Sequence record: OP114734.1
DNA length: 64,000 nucleotides
Strand: one strand, 5' to 3'
Source: Escherichia phage vB_ESM-pEJ01
In this document: piece by piece, positions 3,583 to 56,757 of the stretch
Layout of the letters: each line of letters begins with the position of its first letter
Numbering within the stretch: position 1 is the first letter of the stretch
Notes under the pieces: model-generated
The model's input: the letters and a program-made list of their open reading frames with translations, nothing else
Told to the model about the DNA's origin: nothing
Databases searched by the model: none
Made by a program: the position numbers and the translations under genes

Positions 3583-4584
3583 TTAGTAATGGCTAAAACC
3601 TTCGGTCACATCTTCAACCACATAGTAACGATGACAGCGCATTTTGGCATTTGCATAATCTTTCGGGATACTTACAACGTGACGCGGATCAACTTTGCAT
3701 TTAATGATTCGGCCTCGTCCACCGCCATAGTGCGGAATATAGTGTTTCGCTGCAACGTGGAGGCCATTAGAGCAAGTGCGATCATCATCTGGGTCCACGT
3801 CTTTACGCTTCATTTTAACCGTGCGACCTGGGCTATTATCAAACGTATGCGTAAAGAAATCTTTATAATCAACATCAACACGTTTCCATGCATAGAAACA
3901 ACCATCTTCCACGATCTCAATGTCGTTGTGCTCTAAGAAGTCAAATAGACGATCTACGGCCTTACGGCTAGGGTTTTTCTTGCACTTCTCAAAGAAGTTA
4001 AGATAGTGCGTATATGGCTTATTCTCTTTAATCGACTCCACAACTCGACGAGTCAGATTATTATCAAGAACAATATTATGATAATACACAATACCATTTT
4101 CGATACGGAAAGCGCCGTGATAATATACTTCAACCGCTTTCTTAATGTCAATCAGCGTAATAGCTTTGATGAAATCATTATGTTTAATCGCTTCCAGTGC
4201 TTCCTTAAAGTTAACATGTGATGGATCAGCAGTATAAACAATGTCACCACATGTAATAGTAATAAACTTAGTTGAGGCTATGGCTACGATTTTTGAGGAA
4301 GTAGTCACGGGCTTTTTTGCGCGTTCACCGCCTTTTCCTTTACTGGTTTTACGGCGTGCTTTACGTTTTTCTAGTGCCTTGCGGCCTTCCGCTACTGCGT
4401 CTTTCTGAATCAGTAATACACGGGAAGCAGTGCGACGAGATACACCAAATGCTGCCGCAAGTGCTTCGCGGGTAGTAAACTTACCTTCGCCCCACTGTTT
4501 AGCCAGTTTGATTTGTTTCGCAGAATCCAGACATTGAACGTTACGGTCAGAGACGGTGATTTTTGCTTTAGTCATAGTATTCAT
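3583..4584 (-). CDS. rIIB: rIIB protein
   Basis: Position directly downstream of rIIA; conserved C-terminal blocks FDNSPG..VKM and DVVSIP..DYANAKMR recalled from T4 rIIB; N-terminal HTH-like segment. Confidence 0.8.
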   Translation of the reverse strand: MNTMTKAKITVSDRNVQCLDSAKQIKLAKQWGEGKFTTREALAAAFGVSRRTASRVLLIQKDAVAEGRKALEKRKARRKTSKGKGGERAKKPVTTSSKIVAIASTKFITITCGDIVYTADPSHVNFKEALEAIKHNDFIKAITLIDIKKAVEVYYHGAFRIENGIVYYHNIVLDNNLTRRVVESIKENKPYTHYLNFFEKCKKNPSRKAVDRLFDFLEHNDIEIVEDGCFYAWKRVDVDYKDFFTHTFDNSPGRTVKMKRKDVDPDDDRTCSNGLHVAAKHYIPHYGGGRGRIIKCKVDPRHVVSIPKDYANAKMRCHRYYVVEDVTEGFSHY

Positions 4585-4637
4585 TCCTCTATTAGTTGGG
4601 CGACTATCGCCGCCCGATTCACATCATTATACCAGAA

Positions 4638-4769
4638 TTATTTTGCTTCGACAACCTTGCGGATTGTGCGGTCTGATACATTATAGATTCGTGCCAGTTC
4701 GCCTTTAGTCAAACCGCGAGCGTATTGTTTACGGATGGTTTCTTTCTGGATGGCGGTCAGTTTAGTCAT
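4638..4769 (-). CDS. small helix-turn-helix protein (43 aa), not in ORF track
   Basis: ATG 5 nt after a GAGGTG RBS that directly follows the rIIA stop; translation MTKLTAIQKETIRKQYARGLTKGELARIYNVSDRTIRKVVEAK has a classic HTH. Confidence 0.5.
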   Translation of the reverse strand: MTKLTAIQKETIRKQYARGLTKGELARIYNVSDRTIRKVVEAK

Positions 4770-4780
4770 AATATCACCTC

Positions 4781-6889
4781 TTAAAATTTAACATTCTTAA
4801 CCAGTTTCATAAAGTCTTGTGCGCGTTTGTCATTATGCAGAATACGATACCAGTTATCGACAATATCATACAGTAACGGGCTATTCTCTTTAAACTTCGC
4901 ACAAACTGCTTTAATTCGTTCGTTTGCTACCGTGAATTTTTCATCACAAATCTTTTTAGTTTCTTCGTCCATAACCCAACGAGTACGAAGGAGTAACTTG
5001 GAAACCTCTTTATTATAATGACGACCGTACAGTCTGTCAATAAATTCTGGAACACAGCGTTCTAGTTCATCGTCATGAAACAACATAGTGATCACACCCA
5101 GATATTCGCCATACCCCAGATGATTGGTCTTAACCTTCTTAGCCAGACCAGCCAGCTTACCGCGAACAAATTCTAGCGCACATTCCAATTGTTCGTCAAC
5201 GAGATATTTTTGTGTCTCGTTTCGAGTAATAATATACTTTGTTACCCCGAAGTAGTCAAGCGCCGTGTGTAATGTATTTTCACTATGGATCGATTTACGA
5301 CTACGGCTTTCGAATGCATCACCTACGCGGAACATGTGCAAGCCTGATAACTCGCGAATCTCTGCCGCTTTCATGTGATGGCTGGTTTTATGCCAACTGT
5401 CACCAATCTTTTCCATGATATACACGTTAGGCAGCTTGGGAGTAGCTTCACGTTGTGTACGCTCGGTCTTCTCCGGTTTAACTGCTTTAGCACGCAGATC
5501 ATCGGCCTCAGACACTTTAATCACGGTCATTTCAGAATCATCATAATACTGTTTGATGTACTCGAAAGTCTCCATATGTTTTTCGTTGCGCTGACGGAAC
5601 ACAAGTACCTTTTTATTGATGCCGTATTCCTGGACCATACCGTTAAGAGTCAGTGCACGCAGTTTCGGTTTATCGGTATCATCAATAAGACACGTAATAT
5701 CTTCTTTATGCATCCATACAAAATGCGTAATGTTGTATTGACTGCTAACGAAAGCAGGGCGCAATTTACTGATTGTGTGACGAGTACGATACAGAGTATA
5801 CACCTGACCTTCTACGTCATTAGGCGAATCTTTACCCGCATTCACAAACTTATTATAGATTGCTACCGGATCATCCCACTGCCCGATCTTACCCATCTTG
5901 CTAATAATATTGCGTTGAGTCGATGAATACTCGCTCATAAATTGCGCAAGTTTACGCTCTGTTTTAATGTTGGCGATCTTCTCTTTAACCTTTTCCAACA
6001 TCATTTCATTGATTTCTGCAATGCGTTTTTCGATGTTCGCTTTAGTCTCAATTGACAAGTGAACTTCTTCACGCGATGGCATCAGGTCCAGATCACCCAA
6101 CTCAAAATTAATGTAAATGGTCTGGTGCTGGCGGTTTACAGCTTCTAACCATGTTCCGCGAACATATTCATACGGGATCGGGTACTGGATCTTACCCATG
6201 ATTGCATATACCACATAGGAATCGTTATCACGCCCATTACAAACATAATAATTATCAAAGCTAGGGAAATAATTAATTTCGATTGCATTGATATTAGGTT
6301 TGTGTTCCCCAAAATGACGCAGTACAAACTGTGCTTCTCGATGCCATGTCTGAATATCTTTCTCTTTCACCGGAATAGTGATTTTCAGACCATTGTCTTC
6401 ATAGGTCGGTTCGTCGAAAATCTGCACCATTTTAGGCATAGAGTTTTGCACAAATGCCGTAAAGCCATAAGCGCGACCATTGTAATAGTTTACGATTGTA
6501 AAGGTGTCAGTGTAGCTATAAGCAGATTTCGCACCTAAACCAAAAGATCCGATATAATCATTAGTCTGGTCTTTGGTTGATTCAAAGTAAACCGTAAACA
6601 GTTGTTCTAATTCTTTCTTAGACGGAATACCAGTACCATAATCACGCACAGAAAAATACGGTTCGATTGCAGTCGGTAAATGAATATCAAACGGACGATC
6701 TAAGGTTCCTGCTTCTTTGTGAGTGTCGGTAGCATTACATGAATACTCACGGACGCAAGCACGCTCACAATATTGATAAGTGTTCTTAGAAAGCACCATA
6801 AAAGCCTTGCTACTTGCTTTCAGAGAAAAATCAACCGCACCGCTCAAGTCACTGCCAAATACTTCCTCATTATCGATATGCATTTTCAT
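4781..6889 (-). CDS. rIIA: rIIA protein (GHKL/Bergerat-fold ATPase N-terminus)
   Basis: 702 aa; GHKL-type motifs (DYGTGIP, GSFGLGAKSAYSYTDTFT); synteny with rIIB and topoisomerase 39. Confidence 0.85.
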   Translation of the reverse strand: MKMHIDNEEVFGSDLSGAVDFSLKASSKAFMVLSKNTYQYCERACVREYSCNATDTHKEAGTLDRPFDIHLPTAIEPYFSVRDYGTGIPSKKELEQLFTVYFESTKDQTNDYIGSFGLGAKSAYSYTDTFTIVNYYNGRAYGFTAFVQNSMPKMVQIFDEPTYEDNGLKITIPVKEKDIQTWHREAQFVLRHFGEHKPNINAIEINYFPSFDNYYVCNGRDNDSYVVYAIMGKIQYPIPYEYVRGTWLEAVNRQHQTIYINFELGDLDLMPSREEVHLSIETKANIEKRIAEINEMMLEKVKEKIANIKTERKLAQFMSEYSSTQRNIISKMGKIGQWDDPVAIYNKFVNAGKDSPNDVEGQVYTLYRTRHTISKLRPAFVSSQYNITHFVWMHKEDITCLIDDTDKPKLRALTLNGMVQEYGINKKVLVFRQRNEKHMETFEYIKQYYDDSEMTVIKVSEADDLRAKAVKPEKTERTQREATPKLPNVYIMEKIGDSWHKTSHHMKAAEIRELSGLHMFRVGDAFESRSRKSIHSENTLHTALDYFGVTKYIITRNETQKYLVDEQLECALEFVRGKLAGLAKKVKTNHLGYGEYLGVITMLFHDDELERCVPEFIDRLYGRHYNKEVSKLLLRTRWVMDEETKKICDEKFTVANERIKAVCAKFKENSPLLYDIVDNWYRILHNDKRAQDFMKLVKNVKF

Positions 6890-51629: not shown

Positions 51630-52406
51630 TTACACGCGAGCACCGTAGATCGTGCCTACTTTATCCCAGCGTGGAGCATTACCAGTAACAGCCTTACCAG
51701 CAGCACCGCCGTTATATTCTGTACCGTTACCTTGAGTATTACATCTTCCTCCAGCAGCACCGACATTACCACCCGAACCGCCTGTATATGCACTAAGAGA
51801 CCCCTCACCAACAGATCCTTTACCAGGAGCGGAAATAGTACCAGCAGTTGCACCGGAACTCATATGAGAGGAAGACCCACCAGCACCGAATGGGCGACCA
51901 CCGCCGCCGCCAAATACTAGTCGACCCCTGTTACCGCCGCCACCGCCGCCACCGCCGCCAGCGATAGCACCGTTATTTGTAATTCGTAGACGTGTACCGA
52001 TAGCGTTATTGATTGCGTTTCCACCAGCAGCGCCAGCAGCGTTACTACCACCATTACCCCCACGTCCGTAGACAGTCACATCGGAGTTGATGATCAGTGT
52101 TACATACTCGTTTGTTAACGAGCTAGGGAAGTCAAGACAAGGAACGCCAGTAGATTGGGAAACAATATTACCTGTGATAGTAATTACTACAGGAGTAGAT
52201 CCTTGTGCTTTCATCCAGTTAATAAGAGTGTCTTTATTGTAAGAGTTACTAGCACCAATGCTATAATGAATCTCTTTAGAGCGTCCGACCATTGCCGACA
52301 TATACGCCGGACGACCTAAGCGTACAGCTTGCATTGCGGCGCTCATCCACCGTTGACCAGTCTCGGACACAGCAGATGATCCTACCCATCCAGAAGATAT
52401 TGCCAT
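51630..52406 (-). CDS. glycine-rich protein (258 aa), function unknown
   Basis: C-terminal 150 aa ~45% Gly with G9 and G5 runs; N-terminal ~110 aa ordinary. Confidence 0.5.
   Translation of the reverse strand: MAISSGWVGSSAVSETGQRWMSAAMQAVRLGRPAYMSAMVGRSKEIHYSIGASNSYNKDTLINWMKAQGSTPVVITITGNIVSQSTGVPCLDFPSSLTNEYVTLIINSDVTVYGRGGNGGSNAAGAAGGNAINNAIGTRLRITNNGAIAGGGGGGGGGNRGRLVFGGGGGRPFGAGGSSSHMSSGATAGTISAPGKGSVGEGSLSAYTGGSGGNVGAAGGRCNTQGNGTEYNGGAAGKAVTGNAPRWDKVGTIYGARV
51890..51962 (-). repeat. (GGC/GGT)n trinucleotide tract encoding poly-Gly
   Basis: Plus strand ccgccgccaccgccgccaccgccgcca and neighbouring ccgccgccgcc. Confidence 0.7.
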
Positions 52407-53738: not shown

Positions 53739-53937
53739 TCTTCACGGTCTCCATAATTGTTTTGTAAGCCAGCTTAAGATGATCACCGAAAAACTTTGCA
53801 GTGTTACCCTTCGGATCGCGGAGCATGGTTTCTACGATCTCATCGGCAGTAACAATTTCTCCTTTCTTTGCTGCATGTTCTACCATATACTTCAAAGTTT
53901 CTTCGGAGGCAAGTGCTGCGGCCACTGGATTAATCAT
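53728..53937 (-). CDS. hypothetical protein (69 aa)
   Basis: AAGGAG RBS; first gene after promoter 53967..53995. Confidence 0.4.
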   Translation of the reverse strand: MINPVAAALASEETLKYMVEHAAKKGEIVTADEIVETMLRDPKGNTAKFFGDHLKLAYKTIMETVKNAK

Positions 53938-53966
53938 TTTGATTCTCCTTTGTTGTCGATGTGTGC

Positions 53967-53995
53967 ATTATGCTATACCCTATTCCGGTTGTCAA
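53967..53995 (-). promoter_or_regulatory. early-type promoter (-35 TTGACA, 17 nt, -10 CATAAT)
   Basis: Conserved leader CACACATCGACAACAAAGGAG follows. Confidence 0.5.
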
Positions 53996-54000
53996 CACCT

Positions 54001-54031
54001 AAAAACGAAAAAGCCACCCTTTCGGATGGCT
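54001..54031 (-). terminator. rho-independent terminator
   Basis: GCCATCC-gaaa-GGGTGGC hairpin followed by TTTTTCGTTTTT. Confidence 0.6.
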
Positions 54032-54264
54032 TTTGATTATATTTTATTCACGTCCATTTGTATAGTAGTGTTTGAATCGACCTTTGCTAAACTAGTTAAA
54101 CATAGTAACCAATTCACCATCCCTTTCCAATGATAACCCTTCCTCGTCTTAGACGGGTCTTCCGATTCGGCAGTAATTGAACACGCGAAAGTATGAGGAA
54201 GCCAAATAGTTGTGTTAATGCTAGTATTCTTTTACTTCTGGTATGCATCCCACGGTGACTAACA

Positions 54265-54663
54265 TTAAGACAGTCGAGTGAGTTTATAAATTGTTTTAAA
54301 ACATAGAGCTTTGATATCGTCTAAAACGCTCTGTAACGAGCTATCAACATCATTATAAATCTCACTAGCCATTTGCGTTAACTCTTGCAAATAGGCAATT
54401 TCGCTAATCTCCTTGCGGACGACCAACGTTGGCTGATAACGACCAGTGATCCCAATATTGGTTTCAGTGAAATCATCAACCAATTCTTGCATTTCAAGAT
54501 AGAACTCTTCTAGAGCCTTATGTTTTGCATAAGATCCAGGACCAGTTACCCCAAAATGCGCAGAATGCATATAAGTAACACTCATCAGACATTCACCGAT
54601 AAAGCGGTCAACTTTATTATCTTTTCCCTCTTCGGACGTCTTTCGAAAATCACTGAATTTCAT
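54265..54663 (-). CDS. hypothetical protein, possibly ferritin/Dps-like four-helix bundle
   Basis: Start at MKFSDF (GGAG RBS); segment HSAHFGVTGPGSYAKHKALEEFYLEMQELVDDF loosely resembles Dps HW..G..F...H..LEE motif. Confidence 0.3.
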   Translation of the reverse strand: MKFSDFRKTSEEGKDNKVDRFIGECLMSVTYMHSAHFGVTGPGSYAKHKALEEFYLEMQELVDDFTETNIGITGRYQPTLVVRKEISEIAYLQELTQMASEIYNDVDSSLQSVLDDIKALCFKTIYKLTRLS

Positions 54664-54952
54664 GTTCTCGATTCTCCATATTATGCAACATAACAAACTG
54701 TTGTGCGGCATATTCCCCCATAATAAAACACTGCTTAGAATCCATACATTTACTACGAGCATACATCTTCATAATATGGGCATGAAATTTCTGGCTGGTT
54801 TCAATGGAAGGAGATATTTTGTTTACATATACTATCATTGCACCGTCGAAATAATCAGTAAAGTCACCAGTTGGATCATATTGATCAGCACTGACACTTC
54901 CGACCGCAGTCAAGCATATTGCCGCTGTTAGAGTTTTACGAATAAATGACAT
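54650..54952 (-). CDS. secreted/periplasmic hypothetical protein
   Basis: N-terminal signal peptide MSFIRKTLTAAICLTAVGSVSA. Confidence 0.45.
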   Translation of the reverse strand: MSFIRKTLTAAICLTAVGSVSADQYDPTGDFTDYFDGAMIVYVNKISPSIETSQKFHAHIMKMYARSKCMDSKQCFIMGEYAAQQFVMLHNMENREHEIQ

Positions 54953-55020
54953 AAGTCATTCCCCCAGATTAAAAATATTCAGTTATATTTATAATCTGGG
55001 GCTTTATTTATGATTAACTC

Positions 55021-55617
55021 TTATTTGGTAGTACCGTCAATAAAATGTTTACGGCACACAGAGACATATTTATCCTCTGCACCAACTTCTATTTGAGCAC
55101 CATCGCGAATAACATTACCCTCTTTATCTACACGAAGGACCATTGTTGCTTTCTTGCCACAATGACAAATACCCTTCATTTCGACCAGTTTATCAGCAAA
55201 TGCCATTAATGCCGCAGATCCTTCAAATAGATTGCCCTGAAAGTCGGTGCGAAGGCCATAGCACAGTACAGGGATATTTGCATCATCGACAAGCGCACAC
55301 AAGCCTAAAACATGCTCTTTAGTCATAAATTGGGCTTCATCTACAAATACAGCATCAGGACGCCATCGATCCGGTCTACGCTTACCTAACGATTCACGAT
55401 AAACCAAATCGAAAAGATCATCCGATTCAGTGAAGGTGATCGCTGGAGCACTTAGGCCAATTCGGGAAACAACTTCACTTTCTGAATCTCGATTATCAAT
55501 CGCTGGCTTAAGAATTAATACTCGCATATCACGTTCGGTATAGTTATAAGCACTTTGTAACAGAGAAGTTGATTTGCCAGCGTTCATAGATGCATAGTAG
55601 AAATATAGTTGCGCCAT
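55021..55617 (-). CDS. tk: thymidine kinase
   Basis: Walker A ASMNAGKST, DEAQF, C-terminal zinc ribbon CHCG...CRKH. Confidence 0.85.
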   Translation of the reverse strand: MAQLYFYYASMNAGKSTSLLQSAYNYTERDMRVLILKPAIDNRDSESEVVSRIGLSAPAITFTESDDLFDLVYRESLGKRRPDRWRPDAVFVDEAQFMTKEHVLGLCALVDDANIPVLCYGLRTDFQGNLFEGSAALMAFADKLVEMKGICHCGKKATMVLRVDKEGNVIRDGAQIEVGAEDKYVSVCRKHFIDGTTK

Positions 55618-56145: not shown

Positions 56146-56348
56146 TTACATTTAGGGCAATGCGGTTCTTTAATATAATACCCGTCTGTCTTTGGAACAC
56201 TAACAGGAGCGGTTTTTATATTGTATTCGGTGAAACAACGAAAACAAGTTACGTTTTCTACAGACTGACGTTTCACCCAATAACCGGAATAGAGGTCATT
56301 TTTATTTGTCATATTCCACCACCACAATGTTAATGTCTGGAGTAGCAA
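56118..56348 (-). CDS. hypothetical zinc-ribbon protein
   Basis: CFRC ... CPKCKC; start probably MTNKND. Confidence 0.4.
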   Translation of the reverse strand: MLLQTLTLWWWNMTNKNDLYSGYWVKRQSVENVTCFRCFTEYNIKTAPVSVPKTDGYYIKEPHCPKCKCRLYWSHL

Positions 56349-56757
56349 TATTAATGATTTCTTCTACACATTCCAACTCAAGGCCACCGATACCGCAACC
56401 GATTTTAGGGATATAGAAAGGCTGTATAGCACCTTCAAAAACATCATTGAGAGTCTCAAATCCTTTCAGGATAGCACCATATTCAGCATTTGGACCCGGT
56501 CGGAATTGGGTATAGAGATTCACCCCGCACCAGTTATAACCATTAACTTGATGCGTCCAGACACTAAACCCACCCAACTTTTCTACCTTACCGCGAGAAG
56601 TTTGCTTGTCAATCTCTAACGCTTGCGGGAACTCTTTCGCGATATCCGCAGCAATACCAGCGCCCATAGTATGAAAACAATTACAACCATGAATTAAATG
56701 ACCGTTTCCTTGTTTAAACAGGGCGATGAGATCGCCCTTTACAGTATCAATAATCAT
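56302..56757 (-). CDS. macro-domain protein (ADP-ribose binding/hydrolase fold)
   Basis: HGCNCFHTMGAGIAADIA and IPKIGCGIGGL match the two glycine-rich ADP-ribose-binding loops of macro domains; 151 aa. Confidence 0.65.
   Translation of the reverse strand: MIIDTVKGDLIALFKQGNGHLIHGCNCFHTMGAGIAADIAKEFPQALEIDKQTSRGKVEKLGGFSVWTHQVNGYNWCGVNLYTQFRPGPNAEYGAILKGFETLNDVFEGAIQPFYIPKIGCGIGGLELECVEEIINIATPDINIVVVEYDK

What the first reader, a model, noticed from the sequence alone, without database searches (positions are those of the whole stretch)
54265..54663. Possible ferritin/Dps-like protein
The segment HSAHFGVTGPGSYAKHKALEEFYLEMQELVDDF resembles the first helix pair of Dps/ferritin-like proteins (HW..G..F...H..LEE.Y). 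This is tentative; if correct it would be an iron- or DNA-protection auxiliary gene.
Basis: inference. Interest (0 to 1): 0.3.

Follow-up and report, generated by a model that had tools for sequence, protein, structure and literature searches.

The report
Phage mini-Dps gene beside antiholin rI
The flagged gene is the RB49/JSE-type phage version of T4 gene rI.-1, and it does look like a shortened Dps (mini-ferritin) iron-binding protein that keeps the iron-oxidising residues, although the gene family is already catalogued and its activity has never been tested.

Summary
Window 54265-54663 (minus strand) is a real 132-aa gene containing the quoted peptide. The window is a Krischvirus (RB49/JSE-like T4-type coliphage, 99% identical to known isolates). 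The gene is the ortholog of T4 rI.-1 (MobD.6), in Pfam DUF5856 and PHROG 858.

The Dps/ferritin reading is supported:
- phmmer finds solved Dps proteins (best E 3e-5).
- The AlphaFold model (pLDDT 91) is a four-helix bundle, and its first 23 PDB Foldseek matches, and nearly all of the top 50, are Dps chains.
- H36, H48, D63 and E67 match the Listeria Dps ferroxidase ligands H31, H43, D58 and E62 with identical spacing in this clade. They are at least 99% conserved in 270 diverse relatives.

It is a shortened, divergent variant. It has no BC helix and a short helix C, and it fails the curated Dps/Ferritin HMM thresholds.

It is translationally coupled to antiholin gene rI, behind the window's only T4 late-promoter motif. 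Elsewhere the family sits next to portal or capsid genes, or in replication modules.

The likely function is iron binding and oxidation at a dimer interface during late or lysis-inhibited infection. That function is inferred, not shown. The database name "starvation-inducible transcriptional regulator" has no support here. Interest is moderate.

The parts
54265..54663 (-). rI.-1 (MobD.6) ortholog. It is a 132-aa DUF5856 / PHROG 858 protein and a truncated Dps-like four-helix bundle. Predicted helices are 16-37, 44-73, 88-103 and 108-131, with a flexible N-terminal tail at residues 1-15.
54463..54567 (-). Codons for residues 33-67, the Dps ferroxidase-centre signature. H33 is at 54565-54567, H36 at 54556-54558, H48 at 54520-54522, E52 at 54508-54510, Y55 at 54499-54501, D63 at 54475-54477 and E67 at 54463-54465.
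   Evidence: Alignments to Dlp-2, Dlp-1, HP-NAP and L. innocua Dps. Family conservation: H36 99%, H48 99%, D63 99%, E67 99.6%, Y55 97%, H33 90%. Codon positions were read.
54286..54321 (-). Codons for the helix-D residues that are conserved in this family but are not part of the canonical Dps signature: D115 (54319-54321), E116, T124 and Y126 (54286-54288).
   Evidence: D115 96%, position 116 acidic in 88%, Y126 100%.
54650..54952 (-). rI, the antiholin and lysis-inhibition regulator. Its last 14 nt (ATGAAATTCAGTGA) overlap the start of rI.-1, which suggests translational coupling.
   Evidence: PHROG 1246 'lysis inhibition' at E 3.7e-26. JSE and Delraymugoa annotation. Overlap read.
54986..54993 (-). 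T4-type late promoter motif TATAAATA, 34-41 nt upstream of the rI start. It is the only copy in the 64-kb window.
   Evidence: 1 match against 5.9 expected by chance. T4 has its late promoter between tk and the rI operon (PMC2962797).
54009..54034 (-). Intrinsic-terminator-like hairpin with an 11-bp stem (5 G-C pairs) followed by a T-run. It probably marks the end of the rI / rI.-1 transcription unit.
54114..54248 (-). A 44-aa basic, hydrophobic ORF between rI.-1 and the terminator. It may be a third cistron of the unit, but its status is uncertain.
   Evidence: ORF. Annotated as hypothetical in phage Delraymugoa. No PHROG match and no similarity to T4 rI.1.

Best explanation
The gene encodes the Krischvirus ortholog of T4 RI.-1, a truncated viral 'mini-Dps'.

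What the results show:
- It is a four-helix-bundle homolog of the Dps mini-ferritins.
- It keeps the histidine pair (H36 on helix A, H48 at the start of helix B) and the carboxylate pair (D63 and E67, 15-19 residues further along helix B) that form the ferroxidase centre in Dps.
- It is co-transcribed with the antiholin gene rI behind a late promoter, and its start overlaps the end of rI.

What is inferred:
- Within one subunit the two ligand pairs lie more than 20 Å apart. As in Dps, they can meet only across a two-fold dimer interface.
- The protein therefore most likely acts as a dimer, or as a larger assembly of dimers. It would bind Fe(II) and oxidise it with H2O2 or O2.
- That would remove Fenton-reactive iron from the infected cell while host stress responses are shut off. 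It would protect replicating and packaged phage DNA and keep the cell productive during late and prolonged (lysis-inhibited) infection.
For: Homology and fold:
- phmmer finds Dps chains at E 3e-5 to 9e-4.
- The model has pLDDT 91. Its first 23 PDB Foldseek matches, and nearly all of the top 50, are Dps.
- Several BFVD structural matches (mostly ranks 16-41, TMq about 0.6-0.76) carry Dps or DNA-binding-protein names; the closest BFVD matches are unnamed phage proteins.

Metal site:
- H36, H48, D63 and E67 have the spacing of L. innocua H31, H43, D58 and E62 (+12, +27, +31).
- These four residues are 99-100% conserved across 270 members that otherwise share about 30-40% identity.
- PMC8389677 describes the ferroxidase centre (its 'FOC'), built from Asp58 and Glu62 of one monomer and His31 of the neighbour, as probably the only position conserved in all Dps proteins.
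- E60 corresponds to the Listeria Glu55 relay site and is acidic in 80% of members.
- The helix boundaries place the His cluster and the carboxylate pair at opposite ends of helix B.

Expression: a late promoter, a 14-nt overlap with rI and a downstream terminator.

Physiology:
- Overproducing T4 RI.-1 delays collapse of lysis inhibition and relieves RIII toxicity (PMC2962797).
- The family also occurs in phages and giant viruses with no rI annotated nearby. Phage RaK2 has a homolog but lacks RI, RIII and T. This points to a general biochemical role rather than one specific to lysis inhibition.
Against: - No metal binding, oligomer or enzyme activity has been measured for any family member.
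- The protein is about 25 residues shorter than the smallest solved Dps. The model has no BC helix, and helix C is only 16 residues, so a Dps-type dodecameric cage is not assured.
- In most of the family the A-B loop is 3 residues shorter than in Dps, so the His-His spacing is +9 rather than +12.
- The Asp47-equivalent position and the Trp next to the first His are not conserved.
- The Pfam Ferritin and NCBIfam Dps models are not passed.
- The evidence linking RI.-1 to lysis inhibition comes from plasmid overexpression, and the effects are small.
Confidence: 0.6

Rival explanations
1. RI.-1 is a dedicated accessory factor for lysis inhibition. It would act through protein-protein contacts, for example with the cytoplasmic antiholin partner RIII. 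The Dps fold would be only a scaffold, and iron chemistry would be irrelevant.
For: The operon and translational coupling with rI are conserved from T4 to this phage. Co-overexpressing rI.-1 with rIII strongly prolongs lysis inhibition and removes RIII toxicity, and there is no effect in an rIII mutant (PMC2962797).
Against: The near-absolute conservation of the four metal ligands has no explanation under this reading. Homologs occur in phages with no rI annotated nearby (Ackermannviridae, crAss-like, P22-like podophages, giant viruses), and RaK2 lacks RI, RIII and T.
Confidence: 0.15
2. RI.-1 is a head-associated or packaged protein. Under this reading the viral mini-Dps is loaded into or onto the capsid, as ferritin-like cargo is loaded into encapsulins, and it protects packaged or entering DNA. 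The late promoter would serve virion assembly.
For: In P22-like podophage contigs the DUF5856 gene overlaps the portal gene's stop by 4 nt and lies upstream of the scaffold and coat genes. This was seen for three separate protein clusters. Another member lies just after a major capsid gene. BFVD contains proteins named prohead protease that match this Dps-like model over part of their length. DUF5856 also occurs inside 700-1900-aa low-complexity proteins. A late promoter is present here.
Against: In this phage and in T4 the gene lies in the early/nonessential tk-rI region, not in the head module. The papers searched give no evidence that RI.-1 is a T4 virion component. Five other sampled contexts are replication, nucleotide-metabolism or early gene modules. 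T4 also transcribes the operon from an early promoter.
Confidence: 0.12
3. RI.-1 is an iron store or chaperone that supplies phage iron proteins, such as the class I ribonucleotide reductase small subunit or iron-binding tail-fibre tips, rather than a detoxifier.
For: The ligand evidence is the same as for the main explanation. Some family members lie within a few kb of ribonucleotide reductase genes or among nucleotide-metabolism genes (and tk here).
Against: No specific linkage is conserved. Dps proteins are not known as iron donors to partner enzymes (general knowledge).
Confidence: 0.08
4. The protein is a DNA-binding 'starvation-inducible transcriptional regulator', as RefSeq and PHROG name it.
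For: Only the database label. E. coli Dps binds DNA through a lysine-rich N-terminal tail (general knowledge).
Against: No DNA-binding domain is found. The protein is acidic (pI 5.0). Its N-terminal tail has a net charge of about +1 and is absent from most family members. The label appears to be a garbled form of the Dps name. Dps itself is not a transcription factor.
Confidence: 0.04

Closest known systems
Dps mini-ferritins (L. innocua Dps/Fri, B. anthracis Dlp-1 and Dlp-2, H. pylori NAP, E. coli Dps)
   Same: It shares the four-helix ferritin-like bundle. The ligands His (helix A), His (start of helix B) and Asp-x3-Glu (helix B) have the same spacing in this clade. The Tyr that aligns with L. 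innocua Tyr50 is conserved (Y55). The protein is acidic overall.
   Different: It is about 25 residues shorter than the smallest solved Dps. The model has no BC helix in the crossover loop, and helix C is short. The Trp after the first His is replaced by Phe or Leu. The Asp47 position varies across the family. Extra invariant residues (D115, E116, Y126) lie on helix D. It fails the curated Dps/Ferritin HMM thresholds. Oligomeric state and activity are unknown.
Bacteriophage T4 RI.-1 (MobD.6; NP_049716)
   Same: It is the ortholog, with 33% identity (E 2e-25), the same length class and the same MKFSDF start. It holds the same position directly downstream of and overlapping rI, next to tk. All conserved ligands are present.
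   Different: This phage has no rI.1 between tk and rI. The Krischvirus clade carries a 3-residue insertion (GPG) in the A-B loop, which restores the canonical Dps His-His spacing. A 44-aa ORF follows the gene here.
Encapsulin-associated ferritin-like cargo proteins (EncFtn/Flp) in HK97-fold shells
   Same: Both are small ferritin-superfamily proteins whose metal site is built across a subunit interface, and both are genetically linked to an HK97-type capsid or shell gene. In this family that linkage is seen only in the portal- or capsid-adjacent members.
   Different: There is no sequence relationship beyond the superfamily. No cargo-loading peptide was identified. The gene in this window is not in a head module.
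Canonical phage Dps genes (Lactobacillus myophages; 'Gratiaviridae' and other gut phages; PHROG 3636)
   Same: These are also phage-borne Dps homologs, proposed to counter oxidative stress during infection (PMC8008677).
   Different: Those are full-length Dps proteins that standard models recognise. The window protein matches PHROG 3636 only weakly (E 7e-7, against 1e-43 for PHROG 858).

Membership tests
Dps (mini-ferritin, ferritin-like superfamily) | Four-helix-bundle ferritin-like fold | tested here: met
   The AF2 model has pLDDT 91.1 and pTM 0.84, with helices 16-37, 44-73, 88-103 and 108-131. Its first 23 PDB Foldseek matches, and nearly all of the top 50, are Dps chains (query-normalised TM mostly 0.5-0.73; best about 0.72 to P. 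aeruginosa Dps 8ff9). This is a predicted structure, not an experimental one.
Dps (mini-ferritin, ferritin-like superfamily) | Inter-subunit ferroxidase-centre ligands: His and His from one subunit, Asp and Glu from the two-fold partner (L. innocua H31, H43, D58, E62) | tested here: met
   H36, H48, D63 and E67 align to these residues with identical spacing. They are 99-100% conserved in 270 members. Only the sequence was tested. The assembled geometry was not.
Dps (mini-ferritin, ferritin-like superfamily) | Third ligand position (Asp47) and the adjacent Trp32 | tested here: inconclusive
   The window protein has E52, but the family shows N, E, G, Q or D at that position. Trp32 corresponds to F37, and the family has L 72%, F 23% and W 3%.
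Dps (mini-ferritin, ferritin-like superfamily) | Short BC helix in the long crossover loop, at the two-fold interface | tested here: not met
   The model shows residues 74-87 as coil, and helix C has only 16 residues.
Dps (mini-ferritin, ferritin-like superfamily) | Passes the curated family HMMs (Pfam PF00210 Ferritin; NCBIfam NF006975 Dps) | tested here: not met
   The window protein has no PF00210 hit at E <= 10. Only 2 of 80 family members hit it, at best E 0.042. NF006975 scores 15.6 bits against a cut-off of 114.
Dps (mini-ferritin, ferritin-like superfamily) | Dodecameric hollow shell with 23 symmetry | not testable with these tools
   Only single chains can be modelled.
Dps (mini-ferritin, ferritin-like superfamily) | Ferroxidase activity and iron-core formation | not testable with these tools
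   This needs biochemistry.
Pfam DUF5856 / PHROG 858 (T4 RI.-1 family) | Score above the Pfam gathering threshold, and a full-length PHROG match | tested here: met
   PF19174 scores 75.5 bits against 34.6. PHROG 858 matches at E 1.3e-43 over residues 1-131.
Pfam DUF5856 / PHROG 858 (T4 RI.-1 family) | Orthology with T4 rI.-1: reciprocal similarity and tk - rI - rI.-1 synteny with an overlapping start | tested here: met
   BLASTP against T4 NP_049716 gives 33% identity and E 2e-25. Gene order is shown. The overlap is 14 nt here and 4 nt in T4.
Lysis-inhibition accessory proteins (Golec et al. 2010) | Modulates the duration of lysis inhibition together with RIII | not testable with these tools
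   This is known only from plasmid overexpression in T4 (PMC2962797).

The most novel reading that the evidence does not exclude
DUF5856 would be a virus-wide family of minimal Dps ferroxidases whose ancestral home is the head-morphogenesis module. Some members are portal-adjacent, and the domain also occurs inside long low-complexity proteins; Dps-like folds also turn up within proteins named prohead protease. Such a protein would be loaded into or onto capsids, as ferritin-like cargo is loaded into encapsulins, to shield packaged or entering DNA from iron-driven damage. In T4-type phages the gene would have moved next to rI. There its iron and peroxide chemistry would help set how long a lysis-inhibited cell stays alive. 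That would give a biochemical handle on the unexplained 'LIN collapse'.
Probability: 0.15. Interest if true: 0.75.

Novelty: new variant of a known kind. Interest (0 to 1): 0.4.

Why it matters
T4 rI.-1 is conserved across T4-type phages and sits in one of the most studied operons in phage genetics, yet it has no biochemical function. Public records name it a 'transcriptional regulator', which has no support here.

A minimal Dps with an intact ferroxidase signature gives a concrete hypothesis that is cheap to test. Metal binding, ligand mutants, and the length of lysis inhibition and burst size under iron or peroxide stress would all address it.

The family is large: about 1,900 clusters at 50% identity, and 1,415 phage genomes with a tblastn match. 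It reaches podophages, crAss-like phages and giant viruses. Iron and oxidant management may therefore be a more general viral need than the literature reflects. One 2021 paper (PMC8008677) states that phage Dps-like enzymes were known from only seven Lactobacillus phages.

At about 115 core residues, this would also be the smallest Dps-type unit known.

Tried and rejected
- Dimer test. I built 23 tandem sequences (member, a 30-residue Gly/Ser linker, then the same member again) and aligned them as A3. The aim was to see whether H36/H48 meet D63'/E67' across a two-fold axis.
- Profile-profile comparison. It gave only 2.6% for L. innocua Dps. A single-sequence template is too thin, so I used these runs only for residue mapping.
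- Fusion partners. Ten DUF5856 fusion proteins of 269-1934 aa had no informative partner domain; one (P0172) also matched DUF3008 and several unknown-function PHROGs. No shared repeat or C-terminal motif emerged.
- Bacterial genomes. The family alignment has no stretch conserved enough for the genome scan tool. Whether the family occurs in cells or prophages is not answered.
- dN/dS against phage JSE. There are only 7 substitutions (ratio 0.65), which is uninformative.
- Rfam scan of 53900-55100. Nothing reached a meaningful score.
- The 44-aa ORF downstream. It is not a displaced rI.1 and matches no PHROG.
- 'Transcriptional regulator' and DNA-binding readings. I rejected these for lack of any DNA-binding domain or basic tail.
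- Literature. No paper found treats RI.-1 or DUF5856 as Dps-like.

Full report

Window 54265-54663 on the minus strand is an intact reading frame of 132 codons plus a stop. The quoted peptide HSAHFGVTGPGSYAKHKALEEFYLEMQELVDDF is residues 33-65.

The mechanical ORF call extends to an upstream ATG at 54762, but that stretch overlaps the neighbouring gene. The T4 ortholog and the closest homologs begin at the same MKFSDF or near-identical N-terminus, and phage JSE annotates the same 399-nt CDS. A GGAG lies 10 nt upstream of ATG 54663.

**2. Where are we?**

The 3.5 kb around the gene is 98-99% identical to 55 Escherichia phages of the genus Krischvirus, the RB49/JSE-like T4-type Straboviridae. 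JSE names the gene rI.-1.

Gene order on the minus strand is vs, tk.4 (macro domain), three small ORFs, tk, rI, rI.-1. This matches T4, where rI.-1 (also called MobD.6) follows rI. The upstream ORF at 54650-54952 is RI, the antiholin (PHROG 1246, E 3.7e-26). The window protein is 33% identical to T4 RI.-1 (E 2e-25).

**3. What is the protein?**

The family matches are as follows:
- Pfam places it in DUF5856 at 75.5 bits, against a cut-off of 34.6.
- PHROGs places it in phrog_858 at E 1.3e-43. That family is labelled "starvation-inducible transcriptional regulator".
- phmmer against all PDB sequences returns almost only Dps-family proteins. The best are Dlp-2 1jig (3.2e-5), Dlp-1 (4.6e-5), 2d5k (4.8e-5), B. 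brevis Dps, MrgA and HP-NAP.
- A profile of 80 diverse family members still retrieves Dps and HP-NAP at about 2e-3.

An AlphaFold2 model built on that alignment is confident (pLDDT 91.1, pTM 0.84). It shows a disordered or weakly helical N-terminal tail at residues 1-15. The helices are A 16-37, B 44-73, C 88-103 and D 108-131, with a 14-residue crossover loop at 74-87.

Foldseek against the PDB gives Dps chains as the first 23 matches and nearly all of the top 50. Probability is 1.00 for most, and query-normalised TM is mostly 0.5-0.73. The E-values are modest, about 1e-2. Against predicted viral structures, the best matches are unnamed phage proteins of the same family. Several lower-ranked matches carry Dps or DNA-binding-protein names.

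**4. Ferroxidase ligands**

The phmmer and hhalign alignments map the residues as follows:

| Window protein | L. innocua Dps |
|---|---|
| H36 | His31 |
| H48 | His43 |
| E52 | Asp47 |
| Y55 | Tyr50 |
| D63 | Asp58 |
| E67 | Glu62 |

The spacing is identical. PMC8389677 describes the Listeria ferroxidase centre (FOC) as Asp58 and Glu62 from one monomer plus His31 from the neighbour. [quoted passage not shown]

I aligned 270 family members to the family HMM. They came from two searches of 5.8 billion and 1.8 billion proteins. Conservation was as follows:

| Residue | Conservation |
|---|---|
| H36 | 99% |
| H48 | 99% |
| D63 | 99% |
| E67 | 99.6% |
| Y55 | 97% |
| H33 | 90% |
| D115 | 96% |
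| Position 116 | acidic in 88% |
| Y126 | 100% |
| E60 (Listeria Glu55 relay site) | acidic in 80% |

The rest of the sequence varies freely. Identity to the query is 25-40% for most members.

The Asp47 position varies across the family. The Trp that follows the first His in Dps is Leu or Phe here.

From the helix boundaries and a rise of 1.5 Å per residue, H33, H36 and H48 sit at the A-B hairpin end of the bundle. D63 and E67 lie 22-28 Å further down helix B, so they cannot share a metal with the histidines within one chain. Both groups being invariant is what a Dps-type site across an antiparallel two-fold dimer would predict. This is an inference. I could not model a dimer.

**5. How it differs from Dps**

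- The conserved core is about 115 residues. The smallest solved Dps proteins have 142-146.
- The crossover loop has no BC helix, and helix C is short.
- In 96% of the family the A-B loop is three residues shorter than in Dps. The Krischvirus clade carries a GPG insertion at residues 41-43 that restores the Dps spacing. This is probably why this particular sequence resembles Dps so clearly.
- The curated models are not passed. Pfam Ferritin gives no hit for this protein and reaches only 2 of 80 members, at E 0.04 or worse. NCBIfam Dps scores 15.6 bits against a cut-off of 114.

I therefore treat it as a remote, truncated variant of Dps and not as a member in good standing.

The protein is acidic (pI 5.0; family median 5.6). 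Its N-terminal tail has a net charge of about +1, and most relatives lack the tail. Nothing supports DNA binding or transcriptional regulation. [quoted passage not shown] JGI's label for one cluster, "DNA-binding ferritin-like protein", shows that automated annotation already carries the Dps link.

**6. Expression unit**

The only TATAAATA (the T4 late-promoter consensus) in the 64-kb window lies at 54986-54993 on the minus strand. Chance would give 5.9 copies. It sits between tk and rI, 34 nt upstream of the rI start. T4 has its late promoter in the corresponding place (PMC2962797).

The last 14 nt of rI overlap the start of rI.-1. T4 has a 4-nt overlap.

A strong hairpin with a T-run at 54034-54009 follows. 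A 44-aa ORF of uncertain status lies between rI.-1 and that terminator.

**7. What is known experimentally**

Golec et al. 2010 (PMC2962797) expressed T4 rI.-1 from a plasmid.
- On its own it slightly prolonged lysis inhibition.
- Together with rIII it prolonged it strongly and relieved RIII toxicity.
- It had no effect in an rIII mutant.

They proposed that RI.-1 modulates RIII. Abedon's 2019 review calls the role "as yet undefined". Neither paper mentions a ferritin or Dps relationship, and no paper I could find does. Benler et al. 2021 state that Dps-like enzymes had been seen in only seven Lactobacillus phages before their work.

**8. The family elsewhere**

tblastn finds the protein in 1,415 of 50,697 phage records. 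These include Straboviridae on many hosts, Ackermannviridae and crAss-like phages. The exhaustive search finds 1,909 clusters at 50% identity.

Sampled contexts fall into two groups.

Replication, nucleotide-metabolism or early gene neighbourhoods:
- Kuttervirus, next to a primase gene.
- A crAss-like phage, between ligase and thymidylate synthase genes.
- A large phage, near PhoH and RNR genes.
- A probable algal giant virus, near RNR small subunit and DnaJ genes.
- A lambdoid nin-type region.

Head modules:
- Three distinct clusters where the gene overlaps the stop of a P22-type portal gene by 4 nt and precedes the scaffold and coat genes.
- One member two genes after a major capsid gene.

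About 15% of the listed relatives are fusions of 190-1934 aa whose other parts match little or nothing. BFVD also holds proteins named prohead protease that match this Dps-like model over part of their length.

The jumbo phage RaK2 has a homolog but lacks RI, RIII and T holin. The family's core function therefore cannot be specific to lysis inhibition.

**9. Most likely mechanism**

What the results show:
- Dps homology and predicted fold.
- The invariant ligand set.
- Coupling to rI and a late promoter.

What is inferred:
- The subunits pair like Dps dimers, so that the His pair of one chain and the Asp/Glu pair of the other bind iron.
- Fe(II) is oxidised by H2O2 or O2 and held. Whether a cage forms is open.
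- This lowers Fenton chemistry in a cell whose own OxyR/Dps response can no longer be induced.
- That protection matters most late in infection and during hours-long lysis inhibition, which would fit the delayed LIN collapse seen on overproduction.

Confidence differs by claim:

| Claim | Confidence |
|---|---|
| Dps homology and fold | about 0.9 |
| A functional interfacial metal site | about 0.6-0.65 |
| The physiological role | about 0.3 |

The rivals are scored in their own sections. They are a purely protein-protein role in lysis inhibition, a capsid-associated cargo, an iron donor for phage enzymes, and a DNA-binding regulator.

**10. Verdict**

The gene and its family are already catalogued (T4 rI.-1, DUF5856, PHROG 858), and automated labels hint at Dps, so this is not a discovery of a new gene.

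What is not in the literature:
- The explicit reading as a minimal Dps with a fully conserved ferroxidase signature.
- The extra conserved residues D115, E116 and Y126 on helix D.
- The placement of many relatives in head modules.

Interest is moderate (0.4). In terms of distance from known systems, it is a new variant of a known kind.

Noticed in passing
window 54986-54993 (-): This is the only TATAAATA (T4 late-promoter consensus) in the whole 64-kb window, against 5.9 expected by chance. It lies between tk and rI. The window therefore looks like an early-gene region depleted of the motif, with one late promoter driving rI and rI.-1.
   Followed up: partly
window 54114-54248 (-): A 44-aa ORF (MHTRSKRILALTQLFGFLILSRVQLLPNRKTRLRRGRVIIGKGW), basic with a hydrophobic stretch, lies between rI.-1 and the terminator at 54034-54009. 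Phage Delraymugoa annotates it as hypothetical, but JSE does not annotate it. It has no PHROG match and no similarity to T4 rI.1. This phage has no rI.1 gene between tk and rI.
   Followed up: partly
L006, L007, L008, L009 at 3839-6363; L020 at 3850-6353; L021 at 3806-6366: In environmental P22-like podophage contigs, the DUF5856 mini-Dps gene overlaps the stop of the portal gene by 4 nt and precedes the scaffold and coat genes. This was seen for three separate protein clusters. In L015 it lies two genes after a major capsid gene. This suggests a head-associated role for part of the family.
   Followed up: partly
proteins P0167 (1934 aa), P0213 (1439 aa), P0235, P0221, P0262, P0189, P0160 and others: About 15% of the listed relatives carry the DUF5856 domain inside much longer proteins. 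The rest of those proteins is low-complexity or matches little or nothing in Pfam and PHROGs. P0262 has a motif repeated five times, four copies as ASWN[FY] and one as ASWGF. BFVD also holds proteins named prohead protease that match this Dps-like model over part of their length (ranks 19, 28, 37).
   Followed up: partly
window 54535-54543 (-), residues 41-43: A three-residue insertion (GPG) in the A-B loop is specific to the Krischvirus clade, seen in about 10 of 270 family members. It restores the canonical +12 spacing between the two Dps histidines. The rest of the family has +9.
   Followed up: yes
window 51630-52406 (-): A 258-aa ORF with long glycine-rich runs. JSE annotates it as 'distal long tail fiber assembly catalyst' (gp38-like) and Delraymugoa as a tail fibre / host specificity protein. 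It lies only about 1.9 kb downstream of rI.-1, unlike in T4.
   Followed up: no
window 56302-56757 (-): The Tk.4 ortholog, a 151-aa protein annotated as macro domain or phosphatase in related phages, lies upstream in the same gene string.
   Followed up: no
L017 and L018 (metagenome contigs): A DUF5856 member sits in what looks like an algal giant-virus contig, with neighbours matching a chlorophyll a/b-binding protein, DnaJ, RNR small subunit and DUF5754. BFVD also gives structural matches in Pithovirus and Fadolivirus. The family is therefore not confined to phages.
   Followed up: no
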